Below are positions 21,071-47,453 of a DNA stretch of 64,000 nucleotides, piece after piece. Where the stretch lies: the IMG/VR virus record IMGVR_UViG_3300014541_000001, positions 9,504-73,503 of that record, one strand, 5' to 3'. Source of the DNA: a virus. The first letter of the stretch is position 1, and each line of letters starts with the position of its first letter. The notes beneath the pieces were generated by a model that worked only from the letters and a program-made list of their open reading frames with translations, did not search any database and was not told the DNA's origin. Both the position numbers and the translations under genes were made by a program.

Positions 21071-21718
21071 ATGAGTAAATATTTAAGAAATAAAAATTAC
21101 TTTGATGTAATTGATACATATGCAAAAGCATATATTGTTGGATTTATTGCAGCTGATGGCTCTATAGTTAAATCATCAAGAGGCAATTCATATTACCTTA
21201 CTATAACTATCAGATATGAAGATAAAGATATATTAAACTTTATCAAACAGGAACTAGGTTCCTCACATAAACTAACAGAAATAAACAAGATAGGAGGTTT
21301 TGGCAAACCAATACATCATATTAGGTTAAGCATAGGTAGTACTAACTTAATAAGAGGATTAAACCAAGTAGGTCTATACTCTAATAAGAGTCTAACCATG
21401 GGTAATATAATAGAAAATATCCCTCAACAATATAGAGGAGCTTTCATCATAGGTTATATAGATGGTGATGGTTCTATAACCAGAGTATCTAATTCTCCAA
21501 ATAATAAAAGCCTCAATATACAAATAAGAGGGACAAGAGAATTTCTAAAAGGGATTACCTCAACCTTAGAAATGCCTGATACATATATATCACAATATGA
21601 CTCCATTCCTCAATTATCAATTACACACAAAAAATACCAAAGGACTCTATTTTCATATTATGAAAATCTTCCTTTCTACTACACTAGAAAATATAATAAA
21701 TTTCTAGGATACTTATAA
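21071..21718 (+). CDS. LAGLIDADG homing endonuclease (two-motif, monomeric type)
   Basis: YIVGFIAADGSIV and IIGYIDGDGSIT; the only plus-strand gene inside the 41-kb minus-strand block. Confidence 0.8.
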   Translation: MSKYLRNKNYFDVIDTYAKAYIVGFIAADGSIVKSSRGNSYYLTITIRYEDKDILNFIKQELGSSHKLTEINKIGGFGKPIHHIRLSIGSTNLIRGLNQVGLYSNKSLTMGNIIENIPQQYRGAFIIGYIDGDGSITRVSNSPNNKSLNIQIRGTREFLKGITSTLEMPDTYISQYDSIPQLSITHKKYQRTLFSYYENLPFYYTRKYNKFLGYL

Positions 21719-21908
21719 GTAAGTTCAGACTATATCATCACCTATAAATTATAGGGCTGGGCACTCGTGTCTCTATTATATTCTGCAATTAGCAGTTTCA
21801 AGAGTTAGTCGTTGAACCTTCAAAGAGCTTTTAAACTCTAAGCTTGGCTGCTGATTGTCCTGTACAAGGAGTTTCCAGCAATTCACCCAGTTTTTTATGC
21901 ACTGTCTT

Positions 21909-22439
21909 TTAATGCATATAATCAGACTGCATATGTACAACATCATACTCTGATCTGTTCATTTTGAACCAGCCTTTGCCTTTACCTTCCCATGTTACAG
22001 GAACCTTTGCCCACAGATTATCAACTTCTACAGTTCTATCATATTCATTCCTGATAGTTACATGAGGAAAATGTACTATAATAGGTATGTCTATGAACCA
22101 TCTATTCCCTATGAACTCTTTTATATAGTTAACATACCTGTCAAATATACTTTCATTAGTAACTAAGGACATACTTCCTGCTGCTACTCTGAAATTATTT
22201 AATAGGTTAGAATCAGCATGTCCTCTATAATATTGAGTGTTAGCAAAGTCACTTGTATTACCAACTATCTCATACAAGTTGTTAGTTTCAAGTAAGTTAA
22301 TAAAGTCTTCCAAGCTAATAGGCTGTAAATCCACTCTTTCCTCACCATAGAAGTCATTGAATATATCTGTGACTGCTCTTGGAAGTTCAAGCAACTCTCG
22401 ATAAAGAGCTTCTATCTTTTGTTTCAATTCTTCATTCAT
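21909..22439 (-). CDS. hypothetical protein
   Basis: 176-aa ORF. Confidence 0.45.
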   Translation of the reverse strand: MNEELKQKIEALYRELLELPRAVTDIFNDFYGEERVDLQPISLEDFINLLETNNLYEIVGNTSDFANTQYYRGHADSNLLNNFRVAAGSMSLVTNESIFDRYVNYIKEFIGNRWFIDIPIIVHFPHVTIRNEYDRTVEVDNLWAKVPVTWEGKGKGWFKMNRSEYDVVHMQSDYMH

Positions 22440-31592: not shown

Positions 31593-32381
31593 CTATCCTA
31601 TATTCTTAAACAATGTAGGAACCTGACCATAAACAGGAAGCTTTCCATCCCATTTGTCAATCCACATCTGCTCAAGAATAGCAGGAGTAAGAGCTTTAGT
31701 CTTAAGCTCATTAGCTTTATATTCAGCTTCAGCAGCTACAATAAGCTTCTTGGCTTGTGCTTCTGCTACTCTGATCTCATTCTCTACTTTCATTGCATCC
31801 TGTACAGCCTTATTCTTGGCATTTACAGCATCTACAATAGTTTGAGGATATTTAAGTCCGGAAGTTAATTGTTCAAGCTGGAAGTTTTCCTTAAGTAATG
31901 CTGCTGATAAATGAGTTTCAATTGCTCTCTCTATACTATCCCTATTACTTACAATATAATCAGTGGTGAAGTTGTTCAATTGTATCCTAAAGGCATCCCT
32001 TACATAGTTGAATAGAGTTCCTTCAATAACTTCACTCAGTTCCTTTCTATATTTCTTGAATACCTCCGGGGACTTCCCATCAACTAATTTCAATGATATA
32101 GTAGGGTCTACAGTGAACTCTGAACCATCTTTGGCATTGATTGTAAACGGTGGATAATCTACAGTTTTCACATAAGTTTCATACTCATAGATAGCTGTAG
32201 TAACAGGATTGTAGAATACTCTACCTGTAACCAGTGCAACATCTCCGACACCTTTGTCATCACCATAAAGGTTCACTTTGATACCTTCACAACCAGCATC
32301 AATTCTCTCACAAGATGATAGCAACACTGTTGTCATCACCATAAAGGCTGTAAGCAAGCCTTTTACAAATTTACTCTTCAT
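31593..32381 (-). CDS. SPFH/band-7-like lipoprotein
   Basis: Lipobox VLLSSC; Ala/Glu-rich coiled region EIRVAEAQAKKLIVAAEAEYKANE. Confidence 0.5.
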   Translation of the reverse strand: MKSKFVKGLLTAFMVMTTVLLSSCERIDAGCEGIKVNLYGDDKGVGDVALVTGRVFYNPVTTAIYEYETYVKTVDYPPFTINAKDGSEFTVDPTISLKLVDGKSPEVFKKYRKELSEVIEGTLFNYVRDAFRIQLNNFTTDYIVSNRDSIERAIETHLSAALLKENFQLEQLTSGLKYPQTIVDAVNAKNKAVQDAMKVENEIRVAEAQAKKLIVAAEAEYKANELKTKALTPAILEQMWIDKWDGKLPVYGQVPTLFKNIG

Positions 32382-33877: not shown

Positions 33878-34258
33878 TTATTCTTTACCACTTCCTGCCT
33901 TAAGAGCTATCATAGTCAGTTTGGCAATAGGATTATCACTCTTTGAAAGTTTATCAAGGGTGTACATTGTCATGAACTCCTTCTCCTGCTCAATGATTTG
34001 AGGAACTTCATCAACATGAAGACACTTGTGCATCAAGGCAATAAGGATTAATCCTTGTGCTTCTTGAGGTACTTTCATTATCTCAATCAGGACATTGGTA
34101 TATGCTTCCTTAGTACCTTTGAATTTAGAGTCACTTTCTTCCATGATGTCAAGAGACTTTTCAAAGGCATCAATGACTTCATCTTCAAAGTGTTTACCAA
34201 CTCCTAGTGCATCCTCCATCTCTCTAAAGATATCCAGACCATCATCTTTCTTTTCCAT
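33878..34258 (-). CDS. hypothetical acidic protein
   Basis: 126-aa ORF. Confidence 0.4.
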   Translation of the reverse strand: MEKKDDGLDIFREMEDALGVGKHFEDEVIDAFEKSLDIMEESDSKFKGTKEAYTNVLIEIMKVPQEAQGLILIALMHKCLHVDEVPQIIEQEKEFMTMYTLDKLSKSDNPIAKLTMIALKAGSGKE

Positions 34259-34289
34259 TACTATTTATATTAAGTTAAACAATGTGTAC

Positions 34290-34327
34290 AAAAAAAAAAG
34301 GCTACCACTCATTGCTGAATGATAGCC
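34290..34327 (-). terminator. intrinsic terminator (minus strand) downstream of the tRNA-like RNAs
   Basis: Hairpin GGCTATCATTCAGCAATGAGTGGTAGCC followed by T10 on the minus strand. Confidence 0.6.
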
Positions 34328-34455
34328 TTATAGAAGTAGAACAGTTATAGTGGGTATTAACCTGTCAGTCAGTCTGTTAATCCGACAGGCACAAATTAAA
34401 TATATAGGCATTTTCATTTTATGAAGTAACCACTATATACACTAACTTCCATTTG

Positions 34456-34590
34456 TGGGGGTGAAAGGACTCGAACCTTTATAAGATAGTTTTACAAGAC
34501 TATTGTGTCAACCGAAGTAACTCTTACTAACCACTACTGTTTTACCAGAGAACATTTGTAAGAGTGTTGTGTTTATTGCACCACACCCCC
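34456..34590 (-). ncRNA. tRNA-like RNA 2 with ~60-nt conserved insert (candidate YrlA-type Y RNA)
   Basis: Ends pair as a 7-bp acceptor (GGGGGTG/CACCCCC); T-arm AAAGG-TTCGAGT-CCTTT; internal conserved block ACTCT..AAATGTTCTCT-hairpin-AGTAGTG..AGAGTTACTTCGG. Confidence 0.55.
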
Positions 34591-34621
34591 TTGTTTTTTG
34601 CTGTCTTTCCAGCTGTCATTG

Positions 34622-34757
34622 TGGGGATAATAGGATTTGAACCTATGACCATGAGCTTAAAAGGCTGAAGTAACTCTATTTATCACTACTTGTGTATGAC
34701 ACAAGAGAACATTTAACAGAGTATAATACGTGCTCTACCTGACTGAGCTATATCCCC
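34622..34757 (-). ncRNA. tRNA-like RNA 1 with ~60-nt conserved insert (candidate YrlA-type Y RNA)
   Basis: Acceptor GGGGATA/TATCCCC; D-arm GCTC..GAGC; T-arm ATAGG-TTCAAAT-CCTAT; Lys-like CTTTTAA loop in the 3' part; same internal conserved block as RNA 2. Confidence 0.55.
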
Positions 34758-34800
34758 GAATAAGTACCATAGAACAGATAACAGAGTGTTATTACAAAAC

Positions 34801-34866
34801 CCATATTGAAGTAACTCTGTTGCACACTAATGGTACTATATTTTAAAGGAACTTGGGAACATTTAT
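34801..34866 (-). repeat. third copy of the conserved Y-RNA insert element (AAATGTTCC...TAGTG...GAGTTACTTCAA)
   Basis: Minus-strand sequence ATAAATGTTCCCAAG...CATTAGTGTGCAACAGAGTTACTTCAATATGG aligns to the inserts of RNA 1 and RNA 2. Confidence 0.4.
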
Positions 34867-35007
34867 CAGACTGATTTTGGTAAACTGATTCCACATATTA
34901 GTTTGAAGTAAGTCTGAAACTCACCACAAGCTCCTATATAATATGTATAAGCTTTTAGTATGTACTCTAGCTTTAGAGAGTCTCATTTCATCACTTTTGC
35001 TTATACT

Positions 35008-36417
35008 TTATTGTTCATCAAACTTATTCTCAATGCCCTCAAGAGCAGCAATATAAGTTAGGAAATGTTCCGAAAAACCACTGATTTCAGCTGTCCACTT
35101 ACCCCTGTAGTTTACCCCCTTTGTGTTAGCACTTACATCACAAATGTAATTGTATGTACCATAAGGTTCAGGTATTCTAAGGTTAGGGAAATCACAATCC
35201 TGTGAGTCACTGAATACAATGATTCTATCAAACTCTTTGCCTACATGAAACTTACACCAATTAAGGCATTGTCTGGTGAATATACCACCACCACCAATTC
35301 TTTTATTAGTGTCTCTGATTTGCTTGATGATACCAAATCCCTTTTGAGGATATTTGATATGTTCATGTGCTCCTTCTCTTCTGCCATCATTACCAGCTGT
35401 AGCTACTATTTCATAGTCCTCACACTGATTGACTGTCAACATAGCCATTGCACAAGCAGCATCATATCTTGTAAAGTCTGATTTACTTGACATTGGTGCA
35501 CCCATTGAGCCTGATACATCAACAATGAATAAAGTTTTGCCGGGTAACTTAGGCAAATTAGCATAAGATGCCAGCATACTATCTTCAATATCTCTCTCAA
35601 ATTCAGGATTCATCCTTGCTGTCTTAAGGAAATCAAGAGGTAATAACATACTTGACTTGAGGTTCTGTAAGCCTTGTTGAATAATTCTTCTGTCAACATC
35701 AGCTCTCTTCATATTTGCTATGTTCCTCAACATTGCAAGTCCACCAATCTTTTGATTCTCAATCAGCATTTGCCAAGTCTGTTTCTTGTCTTTGCCTGTT
35801 GAAAGCAATACTTCCCATGTTTCAGGTGGTGTAAGAGTTCTTGTAGCTACCTTTTCAAATAGCTTGGTCTCATACTCATTTCTTGCTTTAGCATGAGTCA
35901 GGAATAACACATCTCTTAATTTAATGGCACTATCTCTGTCATATTTAGCCAGTTTGTACTCATTGAAATTATGAAATGCTTCTGCCAGACCCTTCTTAGC
36001 TTGATTACAGATTGGTTTCTTTCCTTCCTTCCAATATAATGCAAGGAAATCAGTCAACATATCTGCCCTAGTTATAATTCTAGGCAACAAGTCTTTGACA
36101 AACATCTTGTGTTCAGGATACTTACACATCTCAACTGCAATGAACAGAGGAGTATGTCTTAGTTTGCTTACCAATCTTGCTTCAAGTGCTATGTTATACA
36201 CATCTTGAGCATTACATAATGGTATCAATCTCTTGATTTCTTCTGCTACTCTGGCACCATCAACATATGCTACATCTTCCCATAAGAGATTAGCTAATAC
36301 AGCTCTCCTAAGTAAAGCAATGTTTGACTGTCTTGCAGCAAATGAACCTGAACCACCAGCCAATCTTTCATCTACAACTTTAGGTGTAGGTTTAAGCGAC
36401 GGATTTAATTTTGACAT
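35008..36417 (-). CDS. Ro60-like (TROVE domain + C-terminal vWA) RNA-binding protein
   Basis: About 290-aa helical N-terminus then vWA MIDAS LFIVDVSGSMG; domain order as in Ro60/Rsr; tRNA-like RNAs immediately downstream on the same strand. Confidence 0.55.
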   Translation of the reverse strand: MSKLNPSLKPTPKVVDERLAGGSGSFAARQSNIALLRRAVLANLLWEDVAYVDGARVAEEIKRLIPLCNAQDVYNIALEARLVSKLRHTPLFIAVEMCKYPEHKMFVKDLLPRIITRADMLTDFLALYWKEGKKPICNQAKKGLAEAFHNFNEYKLAKYDRDSAIKLRDVLFLTHAKARNEYETKLFEKVATRTLTPPETWEVLLSTGKDKKQTWQMLIENQKIGGLAMLRNIANMKRADVDRRIIQQGLQNLKSSMLLPLDFLKTARMNPEFERDIEDSMLASYANLPKLPGKTLFIVDVSGSMGAPMSSKSDFTRYDAACAMAMLTVNQCEDYEIVATAGNDGRREGAHEHIKYPQKGFGIIKQIRDTNKRIGGGGIFTRQCLNWCKFHVGKEFDRIIVFSDSQDCDFPNLRIPEPYGTYNYICDVSANTKGVNYRGKWTAEISGFSEHFLTYIAALEGIENKFDEQ

Positions 36418-36444
36418 AAATTTTATGTTTTAAAAGTTTAACGA

Positions 36445-36455
36445 TGCAAAGATAA
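36445..36455 (-). promoter_or_regulatory. Bacteroidetes-type -7 promoter box (minus strand TTAtcTTTGCA) for the Ro60-like gene
   Basis: The reverse complement of tgcaaagataa is TTATCTTTGCA, about 28 nt upstream of the ATG; a TTTG -33-like element lies about 20 nt further upstream. Confidence 0.45.
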
Positions 36456-36674
36456 GTTATTTATTTGACATATGCAAATGTGAAAATAACTTTAACTTCA
36501 CTTAACTATACCACACTTCAGGTGGAAATTCATCAATTTCTTCTTTCTCTTTCATATTATATCTTTGACATTACAAAGGCTGTTAAACAAGTAACTACAC
36601 ATACTACAATTACAGCACATATAATCATACATACTGCTGTTCCAAGTAGAGTATCTTCTGGCTTTACTTTCATA

Positions 36675-37091
36675 TTATAAATGGTCTGGATGATTATGTA
36701 TAATCCATTTACATGAGCATACTATAATAAGATGCTGTATGCCTGTGGCTAATAATACACCTATTACTATAATCTGCCAATTAGGTAATGACTCCCAACT
36801 TGACAAGTATATAGCACATAAGAAGAATGTAATCCATGTAGTACTACAATAGATACAATAACCTAAAGGATATGCAATGAATGCTAAGAGGCTTCTACCA
36901 AATGATTTCTCAATGATGTAACCTTTCTCTTCCATATCCTCATAATATTTAGCCCAAGGTTTGAGTATTCCATAGTACAACCAGTTGAATATCATACCTC
37001 TAGGCTTAAGGCAATTCCTGTAGAATATACCTAATAGTCCACCTGCTATACCTAACAGGATAAACTCAATTAATACAGTTATCAGTTCCAT
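36675..37091 (-). CDS. integral membrane protein (4 TM)
   Basis: Hydrophobic segments throughout the 138-aa ORF. Confidence 0.45.
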   Translation of the reverse strand: MELITVLIEFILLGIAGGLLGIFYRNCLKPRGMIFNWLYYGILKPWAKYYEDMEEKGYIIEKSFGRSLLAFIAYPLGYCIYCSTTWITFFLCAIYLSSWESLPNWQIIVIGVLLATGIQHLIIVCSCKWIIHNHPDHL

Positions 37092-37431: not shown

Positions 37432-37740
37432 CTATTCTATATTGAATATGATTCTAATTATTCTCTTCCACTTAGATTCTTTATTAGGAATAGGATTAGT
37501 CTTAGTAGCTCTGGCTCCTCCTCTGGTTATTTTTCTGTTAATTAAATGAGAGTCAGACCCAATAGATACAAAACATACTCCTTTGAGATGTCTGTAATAT
37601 CTCTTTTGAATAGATACAGCAGGATGTGTACCTAATTCTTCAGCTATTTCCTCAAATCTTGCTTTAAGATTATAAGGATTTCTTCTGATTCTGTCAACAA
37701 TCAGATTATCTTCCTCTGATGTAAATTTGTTTCTAGTCAT
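37432..37740 (-). CDS. hypothetical protein (Myb/SANT-like HTH?)
   Basis: FTSEEDNLIVDRIRRNP... Confidence 0.35.
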   Translation of the reverse strand: MTRNKFTSEEDNLIVDRIRRNPYNLKARFEEIAEELGTHPAVSIQKRYYRHLKGVCFVSIGSDSHLINRKITRGGARATKTNPIPNKESKWKRIIRIIFNIE

Positions 37741-37772: not shown

Positions 37773-37813
37773 ATCCCCAACTGGACTCGAACCAGTGTCT
37801 AAGGTAGTAATTG
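37773..37813 (-). pseudogene. 3'-half tRNA fragment
   Basis: ACTGG-TTCGAGT-CCAGT T-arm plus TGGGGAT acceptor 3' strand, with no matching 5' half. Confidence 0.3.
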
Positions 37814-37886
37814 TGGCTCAAATGAGGGTCCAACTCATAACCTTCTCCTTAGGACGGAGCTGCTCTATGCATTGAGCTATTGAGCC
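37814..37886 (-). tRNA. tRNA-Arg(CCU)-like with atypical T-loop
   Basis: Manual cloverleaf: GGCTCAA/TTGAGCC acceptor; D-arm GCTC..GAGC; loop GTCCTAA; T-loop TTGGACC is non-canonical. Confidence 0.5.
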
Positions 37887-38488
37887 TTCAATCTACCAAA
37901 GTATTCACTTTTGCCTTGTGGAGCATTTTTATTTCTGCTACCAAAGTTATCAGTTAAGGAATGACAATTAGGACAAAGTAACTGCAAGTTGTCTTCTTTA
38001 TTGTTAGTAGAATCTCCATCTATATGATGTATCTGTAGTGGTATTAATCCAGTATGAGGGTTAATCTCTGACCATCCACATACTTGACATTTATTATTAT
38101 ACTTCTCCATCATATATCTCCTTATGAATGAGCTGTATGTATATCCTGAAGTACCAGATATTTCTCCATTCTTCCACTTCATTATATTACTCTCATATTT
38201 GTGCCTTGATGCACATTCTATGCTGCAATAATCATGAGGTCTTGATGGTGCACATACAAATTCTCTTCCACAATAGACACAGATTGCTTTATTGGCTGTA
38301 CCTCTGTTGAAGTTTTCATTAGGATTAATAATTCTCCTACTAACAATAGGTATGCCTAGCCTAATAGCAGCTTTCTTTACTCCAGCACCTGTACAGTTGT
38401 ATATTCTACCTATTTGCTCATAACTTAACTTATCCTCAAGTATATACTTGGTTAAGTTCTCTTTTTCATTATTCCATCTCATATTCAA
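37877..38488 (-). CDS. HNH endonuclease with N-terminal sigma-70 region-4-like HTH
   Basis: CQVCGWSE...IHHIDGDSTNNKEDNLQLLCPNCH. Confidence 0.7.
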   Translation of the reverse strand: MNMRWNNEKENLTKYILEDKLSYEQIGRIYNCTGAGVKKAAIRLGIPIVSRRIINPNENFNRGTANKAICVYCGREFVCAPSRPHDYCSIECASRHKYESNIMKWKNGEISGTSGYTYSSFIRRYMMEKYNNKCQVCGWSEINPHTGLIPLQIHHIDGDSTNNKEDNLQLLCPNCHSLTDNFGSRNKNAPQGKSEYFGRLKAQ

Positions 38489-40214: not shown

Positions 40215-40291
40215 TGAGGCTAATAGGAGACTTGAACTCCTAACCTTCCTTTACTCTGCAAGGATGCTCTAACCAATTGAGCTAATTAGCC
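40215..40291 (-). tRNA. tRNA-like gene with apparent 8-nt anticodon loop (GCAGAGTA), anticodon unassigned
   Basis: Acceptor GGCTAAT/ATTAGCC; D-arm GCTC-AATTGGTTA-GAGC; T-arm AGGAG-TTCAAGT-CTCCT; the only 5-bp anticodon stem (TCCTT/AAGGA) leaves 8 loop nt. Confidence 0.45.
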
Positions 40292-42640: not shown

Positions 42641-42714
42641 TGCCCCTTGGTGTAATTGGTTAGTCACATAGGATTTTGATTCCTATAGTATCAGTTCAAG
42701 TCTGGTAGGGGTAA
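42641..42714 (+). tRNA. tRNA-Gln(UUG)
   Basis: Manual cloverleaf; loop TTTTGAT; T-arm ATCAG-TTCAAGT-CTGGT. Confidence 0.55.
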
Positions 42715-42720
42715 CATAAT

Positions 42721-42794
42721 GCTCCCTTAGTTCAATGGATTAGAACATTGCTCTTCTAAGGCAAGTGTTAGGGGTTCGAGTCCCTTAGGGAGTA
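42721..42794 (+). tRNA. tRNA-Arg(UCU)
   Basis: Loop CTTCTAA; T-arm AGGGG-TTCGAGT-CCCTT. Confidence 0.65.
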
Positions 42795-42875
42795 CATGAC
42801 TTTGGAATGGATATAAATTGTTTTTGTAATAAAATGAATAGACTAATTGGTCTGTGAAGATAAACTAATCAAAAT

Positions 42876-42949
42876 GGTGGGTTGGACAAATTGGTTAAGT
42901 CACTGCCCTTTCAAGGCAGTCATTAGGGGTTCAAATCCCCTACCCATTA
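42876..42949 (+). tRNA. tRNA-Glu(UUC)
   Basis: Anticodon arm CTGCC-CTTTCAA-GGCAG; T-arm AGGGG-TTCAAAT-CCCCT. Confidence 0.6.
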
Positions 42950-42957
42950 CAAATTTA

Positions 42958-43028
42958 GTCTATGTAGCTTAATGGTTAAAGTGCTGCACTGTCAATGCAG
43001 AGAACAGGGTTCAATTCCCTCATAGACT
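42958..43028 (+). tRNA. tRNA-Asp(GUC)
   Basis: Anticodon arm CTGCA-CTGTCAA-TGCAG; acceptor GTCTATG/CATAGAC. Confidence 0.6.
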
Positions 43029-43083
43029 GCGAGTTTCTACGCCATGAAACAAGTCCTATATTAAGCGTAATATAGGCAGGAAT

Positions 43084-43174
43084 GGAAGAATAAGCCTAAT
43101 GGTAAGGCAGTAGTCTTGAAAACTACTAGTAATCATGTAAAAGTGATGTGTCAGTTCGAGTCTGACTTCTTCCT
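43084..43174 (+). tRNA. tRNA-Ser(UGA), class II long variable arm
   Basis: Anticodon arm GTAGT-CTTGAAA-ACTAC; long variable arm; T-arm GTCAG-TTCGAGT-CTGAC; acceptor GGAAGAA/TTCTTCC. Confidence 0.7.
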
Positions 43175-43176
43175 CT

Positions 43177-43374
43177 ATGATACAGATACTAAGAAAAGAA
43201 GGTTGGATATTAAATCCTAATGATAAGGTAGTAAATGCTATCCTTAAGAGATGTGAGATTAATGATGGTGAATGTCCTTGCCATAATGAAGGAGAAGACA
43301 AACACTGTCCATGTAGTGATTACAGAGAAAAGGATGAATGTCATTGTGGGTTATATGTCAAATTGGAGAGTTAA
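43177..43374 (+). CDS. small Cys-rich protein (CPC..CPC..CHC)
   Basis: 65-aa ORF with ECPCHNEGEDKHCPCSDYREKDECHCG, located between tRNAs. Confidence 0.35.
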   Translation: MIQILRKEGWILNPNDKVVNAILKRCEINDGECPCHNEGEDKHCPCSDYREKDECHCGLYVKLES

Positions 43375-43457
43375 CCTAAGAGGTCTTAGGGACTGCCTGC
43401 TAAGCAGATTGTACCAGTAATTGGTATATGTTTCAAGTACATAGCTCTCCGCATAAT

Positions 43458-43530
43458 ATAGGTGTAATTCAGTTGGTAGAATGCTGGCTTTGGGAGCCAG
43501 TTGCCCTAGGTTCGAGTCCTAGTACCTATA
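43458..43530 (+). tRNA. tRNA-Pro(UGG)
   Basis: Anticodon arm CTGGC-TTTGGGA-GCCAG; T-arm CTAGG-TTCGAGT-CCTAG. Confidence 0.65.
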
Positions 43531-43537
43531 CTTAATG

Positions 43538-43610
43538 GGTCATGTAGTGTAAATGGCTAACACACCATCCTTGCAAGATGGAATTGGGGTTCAAGTCCCA
43601 CATGTATCCA
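43538..43610 (+). pseudogene. tRNA-Ala(UGC)-like gene with non-pairing acceptor/T stems
   Basis: Good D-arm and anticodon arm CCATC-CTTGCAA-GATGG, but the acceptor strands (GGTCATG vs CATGTAT) and T-stem do not pair. Confidence 0.3.
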
Positions 43611-43672
43611 CTTTGTTTTCATGTTTTCATAATGTTTTAGATAGGTTGCCAGTAGCCTTAATACTGGCTAAT

Positions 43673-43746
43673 TGCTTCTTAGTTCAGTGGTTAAGAACAG
43701 CTCTCTTACACAGAGAAGGTCATAGGTTCAATTCCTATAGAAGCAA
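43673..43746 (+). tRNA. tRNA-Val(UAC)
   Basis: Loop CTTACAC; T-arm ATAGG-TTCAATT-CCTAT; acceptor TGCTTCT/AGAAGCA. Confidence 0.6.
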
Positions 43747-43821
43747 CATTTAGACACTACTACAGTTAGCAGTAAATCAGTACATACTGTAGATGTATTG
43801 GTTGAATGGTGTCTATCTAAT

Positions 43822-43896
43822 GGGTTTGAAGCTTAAGTGGTATAAAGCAAAAGACTGTTAATCTTGAGACAGTAGGTTCGAGTCCTACCAAGCCCG
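43822..43896 (+). tRNA. tRNA-Asn(GUU)
   Basis: Loop CTGTTAA; T-arm GTAGG-TTCGAGT-CCTAC; acceptor GGGTTTG/CAAGCCC. Confidence 0.6.
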
Positions 43897-43915
43897 CAGT
43901 TAAATTGGAAGAGTT

Positions 43916-44236
43916 ATGATTGTACAAGTAGAAGATAGAAGTAAGATTAAGAAGGTACACTTTAAACATCCTTACCTCTTTGGTCCAGATGCTGAACAGC
44001 ATGTTATCAATATGTACAAGGATATATTGGAGACAGATGACCAGTTGACCTTAGCAAGGCAATTAGTAAGAGACCTAGAGAAAGAGTTAAAGGAAAAGAA
44101 GGATAAATTCACTGAAATTGAAGCAATGTGTACTATGGAATTTGAGCAAAAGGAAGTGGAACATGTTGATGTAGTTAAGTCTAACATGGCAGTGATTAAT
44201 CCAACAGATGCTAGTAATAGAAACTATACTGGGTAG
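43916..44236 (+). CDS. hypothetical protein
   Basis: 106-aa ORF in the tRNA array. Confidence 0.35.
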   Translation: MIVQVEDRSKIKKVHFKHPYLFGPDAEQHVINMYKDILETDDQLTLARQLVRDLEKELKEKKDKFTEIEAMCTMEFEQKEVEHVDVVKSNMAVINPTDASNRNYTG

Positions 44237-44300
44237 TAGTTTAATGGTAAAACCTTAGTCTCCAAAACTAAATTTAGAGGTTCGATTCCTTTCTACTCAG
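44230..44300 (+). tRNA. tRNA-Trp(CCA)
   Basis: Anticodon arm TTAGT-CTCCAAA-ACTAA; T-arm AGAGG-TTCGATT-CCTTT. Confidence 0.6.
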
Positions 44301-44337
44301 CATTATGTGCATGTCTTCTAATTGGTTAGAAGAATAT

Positions 44338-44414
44338 AGGGACTTATCCCCTCTGTCTGATAAGCAGTTGAAAGGGTAGTTGGTTACAGTTGAGTTCAAT
44401 TCTCAAAGTCCCTA
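44338..44414 (+). ncRNA. tRNA-like element with unresolved cloverleaf
   Basis: Acceptor AGGGACT/AGTCCCT pairs; T-arm TTGAG-TTCAATT-CTCAA; the central 39 nt does not fold as canonical D/anticodon arms. Confidence 0.3.
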
Positions 44415-44416
44415 CT

Positions 44417-45001
44417 ATGATAGATGAAGAAATAAGAAATAACATATTGAACTTATATAGTTCAGGAAAAACTTTGCCTTATATATGCAAGGCTTTAAAA
44501 GTGTCCAAAGCTACAGTATCATATCAGATTAACAAGGCTGGAATCTCAAGATATAGAAACTCTGTGAAGATTACAGAAAAAATACTTGAGGATATGCAAA
44601 GTAGATATGACGAATGTAAAGACTTAAGGATAGTTAGTAAGGAGTTTGGAGTATCAATTAACAGACTAAAGCTTTTAAAGAGAAGACCTTCTCAAACCAA
44701 TTATGAGATATTAAGAAATAGAAGATATAGAATTAAGCAAGAGCTTGTTGAATATAAGGGAGGAAAATGTCAAGTATGTGGATATGATAGATGTCTATCA
44801 GCTCTTGAGTTTCATCATTTAGACCCAGCAAGGAAAGATTTCACTATATCTTCTAATATGAAATATGCTAGTTTAGAGGACTTAAAAGATGAGACAAATA
44901 AGTGTATTTTGGTGTGTTCAAACTGTCATAGAGAAATACATGCAGGAATAGTAAATATAGAAGATATTTCTTACAAAGGTAAGCATGGTTTAGAATCATG
45001 A
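44417..45001 (+). CDS. HNH endonuclease with N-terminal HTH (start set to ATG at 44417)
   Basis: KCQVCGYDRCLSALEFHHLDPARKDF...ILVCSNCHREIH. Confidence 0.65.
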   Translation: MIDEEIRNNILNLYSSGKTLPYICKALKVSKATVSYQINKAGISRYRNSVKITEKILEDMQSRYDECKDLRIVSKEFGVSINRLKLLKRRPSQTNYEILRNRRYRIKQELVEYKGGKCQVCGYDRCLSALEFHHLDPARKDFTISSNMKYASLEDLKDETNKCILVCSNCHREIHAGIVNIEDISYKGKHGLES

Positions 45002-45007
45002 AAGATT

Positions 45008-45080
45008 GTGTAGTTAGCTTAAATGGAATAGAGCACTGGATTGTGACTCCAGAGGATAGGGTTCAACTCCCTGCTACACC
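45008..45080 (+). tRNA. tRNA-His(GUG)
   Basis: Anticodon arm CTGGA-TTGTGAC-TCCAG; T-arm TAGGG-TTCAACT-CCCTG. Confidence 0.6.
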
Positions 45081-45086
45081 CTTTAT

Positions 45087-45160
45087 ACTCACATAGCTCA
45101 GCAGGTTAGAGCAGGAATCTTATACATTCAAGGTCAGGGGTTCAAATCCCTTTGTGAGTA
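45087..45160 (+). tRNA. tRNA-Ile(UAU)
   Basis: Acceptor ACTCACA/TGTGAGT; D-arm GCTC-AGCAGGTTA-GAGC; loop CTTATAC. Confidence 0.55.
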
Positions 45161-45164
45161 CTAT

Positions 45165-45237
45165 CTCCAGTTGTCTGAATGGTTTAGGTCCTAGTCTGCA
45201 AAACTATGGTATGTTGGTTCAAATCCAATACTGGAGT
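45165..45237 (+). tRNA. tRNA-Cys(GCA)
   Basis: Loop CTGCAAA; T-arm GTTGG-TTCAAAT-CCAAT; acceptor CTCCAGT/ACTGGAG. Confidence 0.55.
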
Positions 45238-45239
45238 CT

Positions 45240-45449
45240 ATGGAAGATAAATTAGATAAGATACTGAAGAATCAAGAGATAATTAATAGGAACCAAGTTA
45301 CAATATACAGAGAGTTACTATTAGTTGAATCAAGACTCTTTAAGAGTGAAAGCAAAGAGTTCCTTAGAAACTATTTGGCAGATATAGCAGGTACTATTAC
45401 TGCTGAGTTAGGTCTTGTGGACCTTCTTAATGCTATAAAGAAAGCATAA
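45240..45449 (+). CDS. hypothetical protein
   Basis: 69-aa ORF in the tRNA array. Confidence 0.35.
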   Translation: MEDKLDKILKNQEIINRNQVTIYRELLLVESRLFKSESKEFLRNYLADIAGTITAELGLVDLLNAIKKA

Positions 45450-45523
45450 GTTCCTATAGCTGAATTGGTTAAAGCACCTGTCTCTTAAACAGGGGACTCA
45501 AGGTTCAAGTCCTTGTGGGAACA
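45450..45523 (+). tRNA. tRNA-Lys(CUU)
   Basis: Anticodon arm CCTGT-CTCTTAA-ACAGG; T-arm CAAGG-TTCAAGT-CCTTG. Confidence 0.65.
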
Positions 45524-45543
45524 CATTAACCTTGGCAGGTTTA

Positions 45544-45616
45544 TTCCCCTATAGCAGACAGGTGTAGGCAATTGACTTTTAATCAATGAGGTGAGGTTCG
45601 ATTCCTCATGGGGGAA
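45544..45616 (+). tRNA. tRNA-Lys(UUU)
   Basis: Anticodon arm ATTGA-CTTTTAA-TCAAT; T-arm TGAGG-TTCGATT-CCTCA. Confidence 0.6.
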
Positions 45617-45620
45617 CACA

Positions 45621-45705
45621 TTGAAGTATAACCGGTAATTGGTAGCCGCAAAGACTGTAAATCTTTTCCCTATGGGACTGGGGGTTCGATTCCCTCTACT
45701 TCAAC
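45621..45705 (+). tRNA. tRNA-Tyr(GUA), class II
   Basis: Anticodon arm AAAGA-CTGTAAA-TCTTT; long variable arm hairpin TCCCTATGGGA. Confidence 0.65.
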
Positions 45706-45713
45706 ATTTTAAT

Positions 45714-45788
45714 GGGTACTTGGTGTAGGTGGTTATTGCACGTGGGTCTGAAAAACCCAAGGCTCTGATTCGATTTCAGAAGTTCCCA
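45714..45788 (+). tRNA. tRNA-Phe(GAA)
   Basis: Anticodon arm TGGGT-CTGAAAA-ACCCA; T-arm TCTGA-TTCGATT-TCAGA. Confidence 0.6.
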
Positions 45789-45805
45789 CTTTAAAAATAC
45801 TAAAC

Positions 45806-46252
45806 ATGAAAGAATGTAAGAGATGTCATGTAATAAAGGAAGATAGTGAATTTGCTTTCAGAAACAAAGCAAAGGGTACATTACAACCTTACTGCAAAGA
45901 ATGCAAAAGAGAAATAGATAAGGAACTTTATGACTCAAATCACTCAGATAGAAGAAGAAAAATAAGAGATAGGCAGAATGAAGTTCAGACTAATCTAAAG
46001 GAGCTTTTGACTAATATTAAAAAGAACTCAAAGTGTGCTATATGTGGTGAAAGTAGATGGTGGGTTCTTGACTTTCATCATTTGAGAGATAAAAGATTTG
46101 AGGTATCTTCTTTAGCAAGAAGAGGATGCTCCTTAGAAACTTTCAAGGAAGAGATAAATAAGTGCATAGTAATTTGTGCTAATTGTCATAGAGATTTGCA
46201 CTTCAAAGAGAGTGAGGAATACAATAAATGGGGTAATGAAAAGAGAGCTTAA
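45806..46252 (+). CDS. HNH endonuclease
   Basis: CKRCH...CKEC; KCAICGESRWWVLDFHHLRDK...IVICANCHRDLH. Confidence 0.7.
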   Translation: MKECKRCHVIKEDSEFAFRNKAKGTLQPYCKECKREIDKELYDSNHSDRRRKIRDRQNEVQTNLKELLTNIKKNSKCAICGESRWWVLDFHHLRDKRFEVSSLARRGCSLETFKEEINKCIVICANCHRDLHFKESEEYNKWGNEKRA

Positions 46253-46279
46253 GTTCAATTCTTAGAGTTCCCACATTAT

Positions 46280-46354
46280 GCCCTCTTGGCGGAATGGTTA
46301 AGACGCACTGGATTTAGGCTCCAGATATTATAGGTTCGACTCCTATAGAGGGTA
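46280..46354 (+). tRNA. type-I (short variable arm) tRNA with anticodon UAG
   Basis: Anticodon arm CTGGA-TTTAGGC-TCCAG; 5-nt variable region ATATT; T-arm ATAGG-TTCGACT-CCTAT. Confidence 0.55.
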
Positions 46355-46404
46355 CAATTAACATATTTTATTTGAATAAGTTTGCATAGTTCAGCTATTA
46401 TACA

Positions 46405-46414
46405 TACCTTTGCA
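46405..46414 (+). promoter_or_regulatory. Bacteroidetes-type promoter (-33 TTTG at 46381, -7 TAccTTTGCA)
   Basis: 20-nt spacing between the boxes; 21 nt upstream of ATG 46435. Confidence 0.5.
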
Positions 46415-46434
46415 AACATAATAATAATGACAAC

Positions 46435-46902
46435 ATGGAACCTTTTTTAAGAGGGGGTTTGCTGACACCATTAGATGATGTAAATGTAGTAGCCCCAGCA
46501 AGTAATGAGTTCAATATCTTCCTTCACTTTGTGAATGTACTTGAAGGTATTAAGACACAGATAAAGAATGTACATTGGGCATCACTCAAGTTACCTAATA
46601 GGGACAAGAGAGGAGCACACTTATACCTTGATGACTTTGTAGATATAGTAGGAGACTTTCAAGACACAGTAGCAGAAAGTGCCACTGGTATTACAGGTGT
46701 TTCCTTTGACTTTAATACAGTAAGTGCTATTCCTTTTAATGCTTCATCAACATCAGAATTGATGGAATATGTCAAGAATAAAACTACTGAGTTCTATAAT
46801 AGTTTACCAACAAGTCCTATATATGCTGGTATTAAGTCTGAAACAGAGACTTTTATCAATAATATAGTGATTTATATCTATAGGTTTAGGCTAACTGAAT
46901 AA
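46435..46902 (+). CDS. Dps/ferritin-like protein
   Basis: NVHWASLKL...HLYLDDFVDIVGDFQDTVAESATG resembles the Dps HW..G..F..lH...D...D..AER core. Confidence 0.4.
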   Translation: MEPFLRGGLLTPLDDVNVVAPASNEFNIFLHFVNVLEGIKTQIKNVHWASLKLPNRDKRGAHLYLDDFVDIVGDFQDTVAESATGITGVSFDFNTVSAIPFNASSTSELMEYVKNKTTEFYNSLPTSPIYAGIKSETETFINNIVIYIYRFRLTE

Positions 46903-46903
46903 T

Positions 46904-46980
46904 GGCTCAGTGGTGCAACTGGTGAAGACACAACACTCTTAAACAGTGTAAAGTAAGGGTTCGAGTCCCTTCTGAGTCAC
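46904..46980 (+). tRNA. type-I (short variable arm) tRNA with anticodon UAA; CCA encoded
   Basis: Anticodon arm ACACT-CTTAAAC-AGTGT; 5-nt variable AAAGT; T-arm AAGGG-TTCGAGT-CCCTT; 3' ...CTGAGTCACCA. Confidence 0.55.
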
Positions 46981-46988
46981 CAGCTAAT

Positions 46989-47059
46989 GGATTGGTAGTT
47001 TAATGGTAAAATATCTCTCTTGTAAAGAGCAGTTCACAGTTCGATTCTGTGCCTTTCCT
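46989..47059 (+). tRNA. tRNA-Thr(UGU)-like, weak acceptor stem
   Basis: Loop CTTGTAA; T-arm CACAG-TTCGATT-CTGTG; acceptor GGATTGG/CCTTTCC has two central mismatches. Confidence 0.4.
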
Positions 47060-47255
47060 CAACAAGTTAGTAACTGTCACTCTATTCAGTGAGGCTAACA
47101 CTCCTTGGCTTATAGAGTCTATTTGGTGAGCTGCCACCCACTAGTCCTGCGGAGACTAAATGAAAAAGAGCTATATTAAGATAGAGGCATGAAGGAGAGT
47201 TCCAGCAAAGGGTAAACTGGAAAGGAGTGGTACTACAATCCAAATCCACTCAAAT

Positions 47256-47328
47256 GTAGGTATGGTGTTAGTGGTCAGCATATGACATTGCCAATGTCAA
47301 GGGGTCAGTTCAAGTCTGATTATCTACT
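47256..47328 (+). tRNA. tRNA-Gly(GCC)
   Basis: Anticodon arm TGACA-TTGCCAA-TGTCA; T-arm GTCAG-TTCAAGT-CTGAT. Confidence 0.6.
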
Positions 47329-47332
47329 CAAT

Positions 47333-47403
47333 GCAGTATTGGTGTAATGGTAACATGTCACCCTTCCAAGGTGAATTTGACAGTTCGAATCTGTTATACT
47401 GCT
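47333..47403 (+). tRNA. tRNA-Gly(UCC)
   Basis: Anticodon arm TCACC-CTTCCAA-GGTGA; acceptor GCAGTAT/ATACTGC. Confidence 0.6.
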
Positions 47404-47453
47404 CATTATTGTGGGGAGATTAGGTAATCCAATTAGTCTCATAAGCTAATTAA

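What the first reader, a model, noticed from the sequence alone, without database searches (positions are those of the whole stretch)
34456..34866. Three copies of a conserved ~55-nt element (AAATGTTCYC...TAGTG...GAGTTACTTC); two are embedded in tRNA-like genes and a third stands free just upstream
Besides the two embedded copies, the minus strand at 34801..34866 carries ATAAATGTTCCCAAG...CATTAGTGTGCAACAGAGTTACTTCAATATGG, which is not flanked by tRNA-like ends. The element is therefore a repeated module: a Ro-binding or other protein-binding helix, a ribozyme-like or processing element, or a decayed third Y-RNA gene. The shared GAGTTACTTC core resembles nothing in the canonical tRNA framework.
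Basis: seen in the sequence. Interest (0 to 1): 0.6.

Follow-up and report, generated by a model that had tools for sequence, protein, structure and literature searches.

The report
Ro60-binding Y RNA modules in phage
The repeated ~55-nt element is the protein-binding stem of bacterial-type Y RNAs (YrlA class), present five times just downstream of a crAss-like phage's Ro60 gene, twice built into tRNA-shaped RNAs in a previously undescribed "un-permuted" arrangement.

Summary
The minus strand from 34933 to 34331, between a phage Ro60 (TROVE+vWA) gene and an intrinsic terminator, carries five copies of one RNA module, not three.

The module has two helices (P1, P2) around a conserved asymmetric internal loop. 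One strand reads U(A/G)GUG and the other GUUC(U/C), and UACUUC follows P1.

- Two copies sit inside tRNA-shaped RNAs.
- Three stand alone, with P2 formed by the two ends of the unit.

Covariation is strong: 96-99% of cells paired, and 15 of 16 pairs show compensatory changes in 82 distinct sequences. The motif follows Ro60 genes in divergent phages and in bacterial chromosomes, strand-specifically (357 hits on the Ro60 strand, 3 on the other). In bacteria it encloses the tRNA-like core of canonical YrlA Y RNAs (Rfam RF02553).

I conclude it is the YrlA-type Ro60-binding stem. This is a known kind. The new points are its presence in crAss-like phages, the five-module array, and two tRNA-shaped variants with open acceptor stems. 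Binding to Ro60 is inferred, not shown.

The parts
35008..36417 (-). Phage Ro60 orthologue (469 aa, TROVE + Ro60-type vWA domain), immediately upstream of the RNA array on the same strand
   Evidence: Pfam TROVE E 4e-13 and vWA_Ro60 E 4e-5 (the latter 24.0 bits, below its curated cut-off of 27.7). Best solved-structure match is Thermus phage phiLo Ro60, 9KOP/9L5Y, E 3.8e-13. It is 77% identical to crAss001 gp96, annotated 'TROVE domain-containing protein'.
34849..34933 (-). Stand-alone module M1, with P2 formed by the two ends of the unit: P2b GAGCUUG 34933-34927; UGGUGAGUU 34926-34918; P1b UCAGACU 34917-34911; UACUUC 34910-34905; 32-nt loop; P1a AGUCUGA 34872-34866; UAAAUGUUCC 34865-34856; P2a CAAGUUC 34855-34849
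   Evidence: R2 80.5 bits, E 1.4e-13; all 14 helix positions pair.
34764..34836 (-). Stand-alone module M2: P2b GUACCAU 34836-34830; UAGUGUGCA; P1b ACAGAGU 34820-34814; UACUUC 34813-34808; 20-nt loop; P1a ACUCUGU 34787-34781; UAUCUGUUCU; P2a AUGGUAC 34770-34764
   Evidence: R2 76.9 bits, E 8e-13. P2 covaries with crAss001 (AUGCCAU/AUGGCAU).
34801..34866 (-).
   Evidence: R1 gives only 22.9 bits, E 0.076, for 34808-34872. P2 cannot form between CAAGUUC and GUACCAU.
34622..34757 (-). tRNA-shaped Y RNA 'A': acceptor stem GGGGAUA/UAUCCCC, D arm, linker, Ro60-binding module in place of the anticodon arm, UUAC-initiated variable arm, T arm. It is a circular permutation of canonical YrlA, with an open acceptor stem and a hairpin-closed Ro stem.
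   Evidence: RNAalifold on 14 homologues: acceptor 7/7 pairs, each with compensatory changes; D arm, module and T arm also predicted. Computationally permuted A aligns end to end with Pricia antarctica YrlA: score 98 against 43 +/- 6 for shuffles and 56 un-permuted. Rfam tRNA gives a partial match at 30.6 bits; ARAGORN finds nothing.
34667..34722 (-). Module M3 inside A: P1 ACUCUGUU/AAUAGAGU, UAAAUGUUCU, P2 hairpin CUUGUGU-CAU-ACACAAG, UAGUGAUAA, UACUUC
   Evidence: R1 58.8 bits, E 8e-9; alignment A1 and pair counts.
34456..34590 (-). tRNA-shaped Y RNA 'B': complete cloverleaf (acceptor GGGGGUG/CACCCCC, 3-bp D stem GUG/CAC, anticodon-like arm AUAGU-CUUGUAAA-ACUAU with an 8-nt loop, T arm), with the module inserted in the D loop
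   Evidence: Rfam tRNA 40.8 bits with a 66-nt insertion in the D loop. RNAalifold on 13 homologues predicts acceptor, module, anticodon-like arm and T arm, with compensatory changes in each of these four helices.
34514..34565 (-). Module M4 inside B: P1 ACUCUUAC/GUAAGAGU, AAAUGUUCU, P2 CUG-GUAAAA-CAG, UAGUGGUUA, UACUUC
   Evidence: R1 71.9 bits, E 2e-11.
34331..34451 (-). Stand-alone module M5 with a 68-nt loop: P2b UGGAAGU, UAGUGUAUA, P1b UAGUGGU, UACUUC (34428-34423), loop, P1a CCCACUA, UAACUGUUCU, P2a ACUUCUA
   Evidence: R2 42.3 bits, E 1.4e-5; halves listed.
34298..34329 (-). Intrinsic terminator (14-bp stem followed by a U run) that closes the Ro60-plus-RNA-array unit, two bases after M5
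   Evidence: The only terminator-like site in 34100-36700.

Best explanation
The element is the Ro60 (Rsr)-binding stem module of YrlA-class bacterial Y RNAs, carried by a crAss-like phage next to its own Ro60 gene.

Anatomy (shown). Helix P1 is 7-9 bp. Next comes a purine-purine mismatch. Then an asymmetric internal loop: 5 nt ending in the invariant UU on one strand, and the invariant U-G followed by one variable nucleotide on the other. Two conserved Watson-Crick pairs follow, beside a bulged U. Then comes helix P2, of variable sequence. UACUUC follows P1 on the 3' side.

The strand U(A/G)GUG(AAG) corresponds to the GNCGAA(N)G motif on the 5' strand of YrlA. The UUAC after P1 corresponds to YrlA's YUAY, which opens the variable loop.

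Because recognition needs only the two-helix junction, the module works in either topology:
- ends in P2 and a loop, or a whole tRNA-like domain, closing P1 (the classical Y RNA arrangement; M1, M2, M5);
- P2 closed by a hairpin and P1 opening into a tRNA body (A and B).

Mechanism (inferred). Ro60 and the five-module array are transcribed as one early unit ending at the terminator at 34298-34329. RNase P and RNase Z release the two tRNA-shaped RNAs, leaving the flanking stem-loops. Each module binds one phage Ro60 ring on its outer surface. The tRNA-like bodies serve as the effector-tethering domains, as proposed for YrlA and shown for Yrn1-PNPase. The result would redirect or gate RNA decay and quality control early in infection.
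For: Position
- The element lies 75-680 nt downstream of a Ro60 gene on the same strand and ends at a terminator.

Structure supported by covariation
- Embedded form: 96.0% of cells paired against 28-48% for slid controls.
- End-paired form: 98.8%. Across 82 distinct sequences, 97.8% paired, with 15 of 16 pairs changed on both sides.
- The core pair switches UAGUG/GUUCU to UGGUG/GUUCC with no exception in the alignments: UA 27 and CG 8; AU 75 and GC 7. A Bacteroides locus has UGCUG/GUUGC.

Association with Ro60
- 50 of 52 viral Ro60 loci and 54 of 80 genome Ro60 loci carry the motif. There are 227 + 130 hits on the Ro60 strand against 2 + 1 on the other.
- In an unbiased pattern scan of viral contigs, all 30 loci that hold a Ro60 homologue (35-97% identity) have the match adjacent to it.

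Homology to YrlA
- In Acidobacteria, Bradyrhizobium and Pricia, the same stem encloses V loop, T arm, acceptor-like hairpin and D arm.
- Rfam RF02553 YrlA matches those RNAs at E 4e-7 to 1e-3.
- Permuted A is colinear with Pricia YrlA, about 9 sd above shuffles.
- L169 has the canonical GGCGA in the same place.

Literature
- YrlA RNAs are encoded within 4 kb of Ro60 on the same strand, carry GNCGAA(N)G near the 5' end and YUAY at the start of the V loop, and occur in phages (PMC4201824).
- A phage Ro60 binds phage Y-like RNAs and host PNPase (PMC12135203).
Against: - No binding, expression or processing data exist for these RNAs. Ro60 binding rests on synteny and homology.
- In this window the motif strand has lost the AAG part. 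It reads UAGUGAUAA, UAGUGGUUA, UGGUGAGUU, UAGUGUGCA and UAGUGUAUA, and there is no CGAA.
- Rfam's YrlA model finds nothing here even at E<=10.
- 26 of 80 genome Ro60 loci lack the exact motif. At least one of them (L187) has a variant that my pattern missed.
- Seven viral loci with model-supported modules showed no Ro60 within the stretch held. That may reflect short loci, or real independence from Ro60.
- The role of the invariant UACUUC, and of stand-alone modules without an effector domain, is unexplained.
Confidence: 0.8

Rival explanations
1. The module binds a protein other than Ro60 (host PNPase, an RNA-modification or processing enzyme, or another phage early protein). Linkage to Ro60 would then reflect a shared pathway rather than direct contact.
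For: Binding was not tested. The invariant single-stranded UACUUC has no described role in Ro60 recognition. Seven model-positive viral loci had no Ro60 in the stretch held.
Against: The module occupies exactly the position of the Rsr-binding stem of YrlA, with a motif strand related to GNCGAA(N)G (PMC4201824). Strand-specific linkage to Ro60 holds across phages and several bacterial phyla.
Confidence: 0.1
2. A and B are real decoding tRNAs interrupted by an intron-like insert that is removed to give functional tRNAs.
For: Rfam's tRNA model passes its gathering score for both. B has a full cloverleaf with acceptor, anticodon-like arm and T arm, all with compensatory changes. Relatives have true tRNAs nested inside modules (L019 tRNA-Arg, L040 tRNA-His).
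Against: A has no anticodon arm; the module replaces it. B's anticodon-like loop varies among close relatives (loop sequences CUUGUAAA, UUAGGGA, UUUGGGU, CAGUAAA) and has 8 nt here. The insert is a conserved structured module that also occurs alone. From general knowledge, no bacterial splicing system for such inserts is known. A is colinear with YrlA.
Confidence: 0.05
3. The module is a small self-cleaving ribozyme or an RNase recognition signal that cuts the polycistronic RNA into units.
For: It sits at regular positions in a multi-RNA transcript and has about 15 invariant nucleotides in an internal loop.
Against: No match to any Rfam ribozyme at E<=10. It is homologous to a stem known to bind protein. 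Modules inside A and B would destroy those RNAs if cleaved.
Confidence: 0.03
4. The repeats act at the DNA level (recombination sites, promoter or operator repeats, or recent duplications) and have no RNA function.
For: Five similar copies lie within 600 bp.
Against: Helices are kept through changes on both sides while their sequence diverges. The motif is almost exclusively on the Ro60 strand, 357 against 3. It is conserved from AT-rich phages to GC-rich Acidobacteria.
Confidence: 0.02

Closest known systems
YrlA (Rfam RF02553, 'Y RNA-like'), the bacterial and phage Y RNAs of Chen et al. 2014
   Same: It is encoded next to Ro60 on the same strand. It has a long stem with a conserved internal loop whose motif strand relates to GNCGAA(N)G (GGUGAAG in relatives, GGCGA in L169). 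UUAC (= YUAY) follows the stem. D arm and T arm form a tRNA-like body. Permuted A aligns end to end with a flavobacterial YrlA.
   Different: In A and B the acceptor stem is open (true 5' and 3' ends) and the Ro stem is closed by a hairpin, the reverse of YrlA. In B the module sits in the D loop of an otherwise complete cloverleaf. The helix positions that are C-G and G-C in the Rfam consensus are U-U and G-U here. The Rfam model does not detect the window copies.
YrlB of Salmonella and Yrl1/Yrl2 of Thermus phage phiLo (short Y RNAs: a stem plus internal loop)
   Same: M1, M2 and M5 are short stem / internal-loop / stem RNAs with no full tRNA-like domain. They are encoded beside Ro60 and occur in multiple copies per locus.
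   Different: They carry U(A/G)GUG...GUUC(U/C) rather than the CGAA motif. There are three of them plus two tRNA-shaped ones in a single terminator-bounded unit.
Metazoan Y RNAs and D. radiodurans Yrn1
   Same: The principle is the same: Ro60 recognises a bulged helix with conserved bases, mostly on one strand, and a second domain tethers an effector.
   Different: There is no detectable sequence homology with the metazoan stem, and the effector domains differ.
Circularly permuted tRNA genes of red algae and an archaeon
   Same: The tRNA body and the extended anticodon-side stem occur in both circular orders (discussed for YrlA in bioRxiv 10.1101/312249).
   Different: Here both orders are separate genes for stable non-coding RNAs. 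There is no evidence for circularisation or splicing.

Membership tests
YrlA-class Y RNA (RF02553) | Encoded within about 4 kb of a Ro60 orthologue, on the same strand | tested here: met
   The Ro60 ORF is at 35008-36417(-). The modules span 34933-34331(-).
YrlA-class Y RNA (RF02553) | A stem containing the Ro60-binding site, with the conserved 5'-strand motif GNCGAA(N)G | tested here: inconclusive
   The stem and internal loop are present and covary. The motif here is U(A/G)GUG plus variable bases. Relatives have GGUGAAG and L169 has GGCGA, so the position is homologous but the literal motif is not met in the window.
YrlA-class Y RNA (RF02553) | tRNA-like domain with D and T arms, and a V loop beginning with YUAY | tested here: met
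   For A, the D arm, T arm and UUAC after P1b are present, and A is colinear with Pricia YrlA. M1, M2 and M5 lack this domain.
YrlA-class Y RNA (RF02553) | Permuted topology: RNA ends in the Ro-binding stem, acceptor-like stem closed by a loop | tested here: not met
   A and B have open 7-bp acceptor stems with compensatory changes, and a hairpin-closed Ro stem. M1, M2 and M5 do have their ends in the stem.
YrlA-class Y RNA (RF02553) | Reaches the Rfam gathering score (69 bits) | tested here: not met
   No RF02553 match in 34200-35100 even at E<=10. Bacterial relatives carrying the same module score 33-45 bits.
YrlA-class Y RNA (RF02553) | Bound by Ro60/Rsr in vivo | not testable with these tools
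   Needs immunoprecipitation or EMSA.
tRNA (RF00005) | Cloverleaf with a 5-bp anticodon stem and a 7-nt loop carrying a conserved anticodon | tested here: not met
   In A the module replaces the anticodon arm. B has an 8-nt loop here, and the loop differs among close relatives. ARAGORN calls neither. Rfam tRNA scores are 40.8 and 30.6 bits, with large insertions.
Small self-cleaving ribozymes (hammerhead, twister, hairpin, pistol, hatchet, HDV-like) | Match to the family's covariance model | tested here: not met
   No such family appears at E<=10 in 34200-35100.

The most novel reading that the evidence does not exclude
crAss-like phages encode 'un-permuted' Y RNAs: tRNA scaffolds with genuine acceptor ends that carry the Ro60-binding helix either in place of the anticodon arm (A) or inside the D loop of a full cloverleaf with a fast-changing anticodon loop (B). 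Such RNAs could be cut by RNase P and RNase Z, receive CCA, and perhaps be recognised by tRNA-binding factors. They would then tether phage Ro60 to the tRNA or translation machinery, or act as Ro60-loaded decoys for host anticodon nucleases. They would also be the missing intermediate between tRNAs and permuted YrlA.
Probability: 0.3. Interest if true: 0.75.

Novelty: new variant of a known kind. Interest (0 to 1): 0.55.

Why it matters
- Ro60 and Y RNAs are conserved from bacteria to humans, yet how bacterial Y RNAs arose from tRNA, and what their tRNA-like domain does, is still open.
- This locus shows the same Ro60-binding module in both circular orders relative to a tRNA body, plus free-standing copies, in a cultivable phage lineage (crAss001 on Bacteroides intestinalis). 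The TROVE gene of crAss001 is known to be expressed early.
- That makes three questions directly testable: the origin of YrlA, the minimal Ro60 recognition element, and the role of phage Ro60 ribonucleoproteins in infection.
- It also gives a compact sequence-structure signature.

Tried and rejected
- Rfam at the gathering threshold and at E<=10 over the region gave only tRNA matches and noise.
- I considered a group I or archaeal-type tRNA intron, a ribozyme, a kink-turn or C/D-box-like motif, and a triplex role for UACUUC. None fits the conserved bases or the strand polarity (my own reasoning from the sequences).
- My first reading took the cmscan 'anticodon arm' of A (UCAGC-CUUUUAA-GCUCA) at face value. 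Comparison with YrlA shows it is the variable arm.
- My acceptor-stem finder produced false 'tRNA-like' calls in GC-rich bacterial loci. I did not use those.
- Supplementary alignments of Chen et al. 2014 and the Sim et al. 2020 review were not available.
- Literature searches for Y RNAs in crAss-like phages, or for un-permuted YrlA, found nothing. This shows absence from the searchable library only.

Full report
**Context.** The window comes from a crAss-like phage. The intergenic DNA around the finding is about 68% identical to Bacteroides phage crAss001 and the PhiCrAssBcn phages (genus Kehishuvirus), where the matching stretch has no annotation. The 469-aa ORF at 35008-36417(-) is a Ro60 orthologue:
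- Pfam TROVE, E 4e-13, plus Ro60-type vWA, E 4e-5 (24.0 bits, below its curated cut-off of 27.7).
- Its best solved relative is the Ro60 of Thermus phage phiLo, 9KOP/9L5Y, E 3.8e-13.
- Its crAss001 counterpart gp96 is annotated 'TROVE domain-containing protein' and is an early gene (PMC8375218).

The finding lies directly downstream of this gene on the same strand. A strong intrinsic terminator at 34329-34298(-) closes the region.

**Checking the observation.** The three stretches are there. Reading the minus strand against crAss001 and PhiCrAssBcn4 shows what the repeated unit is. It has two halves:
- H5: P1a (7-8 nt), then N3-5-(G/U)UUC(U/C), then P2a.
- H3: P2b, then U(A/G)GUG-N3-5, then P1b, then UACUUC.

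P1a pairs with P1b, and P2a pairs with P2b. In the two tRNA-like genes the order is H5, a small hairpin loop, H3. Upstream and downstream of them the order is H3, loop, H5, so P2 is formed by the two ends of the unit.

The window therefore holds five modules:
- M1, 34849-34933
- M2, 34764-34836
- M3, 34667-34722, inside tRNA-like A (34622-34757)
- M4, 34514-34565, inside tRNA-like B (34456-34590)
- M5, 34331-34451

Two covariance models confirm this.
- R1 (embedded order) scores M4 at 71.9 bits and M3 at 58.8 bits, but the chimera at only 22.9 bits (E 0.076).
- R2 (end-paired order) scores M1 at 80.5, M2 at 76.9 and M5 at 42.3 bits.
- Apart from one weak R2 chimera at 34542-34695 inside the array (26.1 bits, E 0.034), neither model hits anywhere else in the 64 kb.

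**Is the structure real?** I fetched 52 viral loci through the Ro60 protein (68-97% identity). In almost all, the motif TTAC[AT]TC recurs 4-7 times just downstream of Ro60.
- On a 35-sequence alignment of embedded modules, 96.0% of cells form standard pairs. Controls with the 3' partner slid by 1-3 columns give 28-48%.
- On 16 end-paired modules the figure is 98.8%, and 13 of 16 pairs change on both sides.
- On 122 R2 matches (82 distinct) it is 97.8%, with 15 of 16 pairs compensatory.

I chose the seed sequences by requiring pairing, which inflates the seed figures. The R2-derived alignment and the independent RNAalifold runs do not depend on that choice.

A diagnostic pair links the two loop strands:
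- UAGUG goes with GUUCU and UGGUG with GUUCC, with no exception in the alignments (UA 27 / CG 8; AU 75 / GC 7).
- A Bacteroides chromosome has UGCUG with GUUGC.

The first U of U(A/G)GUG is therefore a bulge next to two Watson-Crick pairs. Across 149 distinct modules, P1 extends by one or two further covarying pairs. The next position is mostly purine opposite purine. What remains is a 5-by-3 internal loop with invariant UU opposite UG.

**What is it?** Three lines of evidence converge.

(a) Linkage to Ro60.
- A pattern scan of the viral collection returned 119 loci, many of them chance matches. Every one of the 30 loci that contains a Ro60 homologue (down to 35% identity) has the match next to that gene. 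These include GC-rich phages with arrays of four or five stand-alone modules.
- A scan of one genome per prokaryotic species, using a Ro60 alignment, gave 80 loci. The best matches include phage-like contigs binned into MAGs, and most of the rest are bacterial contigs, some megabase-sized: Acidobacteriota, Bradyrhizobium, Pricia, Bacteroides.
- The H3 motif occurs 130 times on the Ro60 strand of those loci and once on the other. In the viral Ro60 loci the counts are 227 and 2.

(b) In bacteria the same stem encloses a canonical YrlA core. Pricia antarctica L218 838-990 reads: P2b, UGGUGAAGA, AUAGAGU, UACUUC, V region, T arm, closed acceptor-like hairpin, D arm, ACUCUGU, UCGCCUGUUCC, P2a. Rfam RF02553 (YrlA, 'Y RNA-like') matches such RNAs at E 4e-7 to 1e-3, below its gathering score.

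(c) Motif correspondence. Chen et al. 2014 describe YrlA as having GNCGAA(N)G near the 5' end and a conserved YUAY that opens the V loop. Here GGUGAAG (relatives) or GGCGA (L169) sits at that place, and UUAC follows P1b. In the Rfam consensus the stem reads GGCGA/UCGCC. In this class the same positions read GGUG/UUCC, so U-U and G-U replace C-G and G-C (my comparison).

**The two tRNA-shaped RNAs.**
- *A* has a 7-bp acceptor stem, a D arm, a 6-17-nt linker, the module, a UUAC-initiated variable arm, and a T arm. RNAalifold on 14 homologues recovers the acceptor, D arm, module and T arm. Every acceptor pair is kept through changes on both sides. When A is cut in the P2 loop and re-joined at the acceptor ends, it aligns colinearly with the Pricia YrlA. 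The score is 98, against 43 +/- 6 for shuffles and 56 for the native order. A is thus YrlA in the un-permuted, tRNA-like order.
- *B* is different. It is a full cloverleaf with the module inserted in the D loop (cmscan alignment; relatives show GCUA...[module]...GGUUAUAGC). It has a 5-bp anticodon-like arm that covaries. The loop of that arm differs among close relatives and has 8 nt here.

Strong embedded-form matches (above 42 bits) came from crAss-like viral contigs and from two MAG contigs, L174 and L175, whose Ro60 is 69-71% identical to this phage's. Matches on clearly bacterial contigs were weak, 28-39 bits.

**Other arrangements in relatives.** In L019 and L040 a complete tRNA (Arg-UCU, His-GUG) sits inside the loop of a stand-alone module, overlapping UACUUC by 3-5 nt. 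A Bacteroides chromosome interleaves variant modules with tRNA genes upstream of its own Ro60, which is 61% identical to the phage protein.

**Mechanism.**
- Shown: the fold, its conservation, its linkage to Ro60, and its homology with the YrlA stem.
- Inferred: each module binds a phage Ro60 ring, the array is co-transcribed with Ro60, RNase P and RNase Z release A and B, and the tRNA-like bodies tether an effector.

The precedent is the phiLo phage Ro60, which binds two phage Y-like RNAs and forms complexes with host PNPase (PMC12135203).

**Rivals and literature.** The rivals are another protein ligand, spliced tRNAs, a ribozyme, and DNA-level repeats. Each is listed with its evidence, and none fits as well. 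Searches for crAss, Ro60, Y RNA and YrlA found no description of these RNAs or of open-acceptor YrlA.

**Verdict.** This is a real, strongly supported structured RNA module of a known family, the YrlA-type Ro60-binding stem. Two things are new: it is present as a five-module array in crAss-like phages, and it appears in two topological variants.

Noticed in passing
window 21707-21921 (-): Group I catalytic intron, Rfam RF00028, 75.9 bits, E 1.7e-17. The host gene was not examined.
   Followed up: no
window 40216-40291 (-): A tRNA that ARAGORN reads with a four-base anticodon (agag), that is an 8-nt anticodon loop. Rfam tRNA scores it at 53.5 bits. It may be a frameshift-suppressor-like tRNA.
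   Followed up: no
window 42641-47404 (+), 37813-37886 (-): A large phage tRNA set: 24 ARAGORN genes in all, 22 of them in one + strand cluster. In other phages too, the Ro60-plus-module loci sit inside or beside big tRNA arrays (for example L074, L158, L076, L068).
   Followed up: partly
L019 1741-2059: A related crAss-like contig encodes a tmRNA (70.5 bits; tag peptide DNTYRVAA) about 450 nt upstream of its Ro60 gene.
   Followed up: no
L019 3920-4051; L040 6272-6400: Complete tRNA genes (Arg-UCU, His-GUG) are nested in the loop of a stand-alone Ro60-binding module. The tRNA's 5' acceptor strand begins inside the conserved UACUUC. This would be a pre-tRNA whose leader and trailer form a Ro60 site.
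   Followed up: partly
L187 2240-2970 (uncultured Bacteroides sp. contig CAZJKZ010000006.1): A host-type chromosomal Ro60 locus. Variant modules (UGCUGAAGA...UACUUC...UCGCUUGUUGC) alternate with tRNA genes upstream of a Ro60 that is 61% identical to the phage protein. The core pair has changed to C-G. My motif pattern missed these.
   Followed up: partly
L031 3008-3146, L035 4332-4470, L049 4261-4399: In this lineage the B-type RNAs have D-loop-like sequence on both sides of the module (GCUAAAUGGUUAAAGC before it, GGUUAUAGCA after it). This looks like a footprint of the insertion or duplication that put the module in the D loop.
   Followed up: no
B-type RNAs across L001-L054 (for example L001 3415-3553, L002 3350-3488, L010 4212-4351): The anticodon-like loop of B changes among otherwise nearly identical phages (UUAGGGA, UUUGGGU, CAGUAAA; CUUGUAAA in the window), while its stem is kept. 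The cause is unknown: drift, or diversifying selection.
   Followed up: no
window 37877-38488 (-), 37432-37740 (-), 31593-32381 (-): Neighbouring ORFs: an HNH endonuclease, a Myb-like DNA-binding protein, and an SPFH/Band 7 protein. In crAss001 the neighbours of the TROVE gene are an HNH endonuclease, a DUF1360 protein and an SPFH/band-7 protein.
   Followed up: no
L061, L079, L085, L101, L113, L141, L160: Viral loci with model-supported modules (L141 has five) but no Ro60 homologue within the stretch held. Ro60 may lie outside the fetched DNA, or modules may sometimes occur without it.
   Followed up: partly
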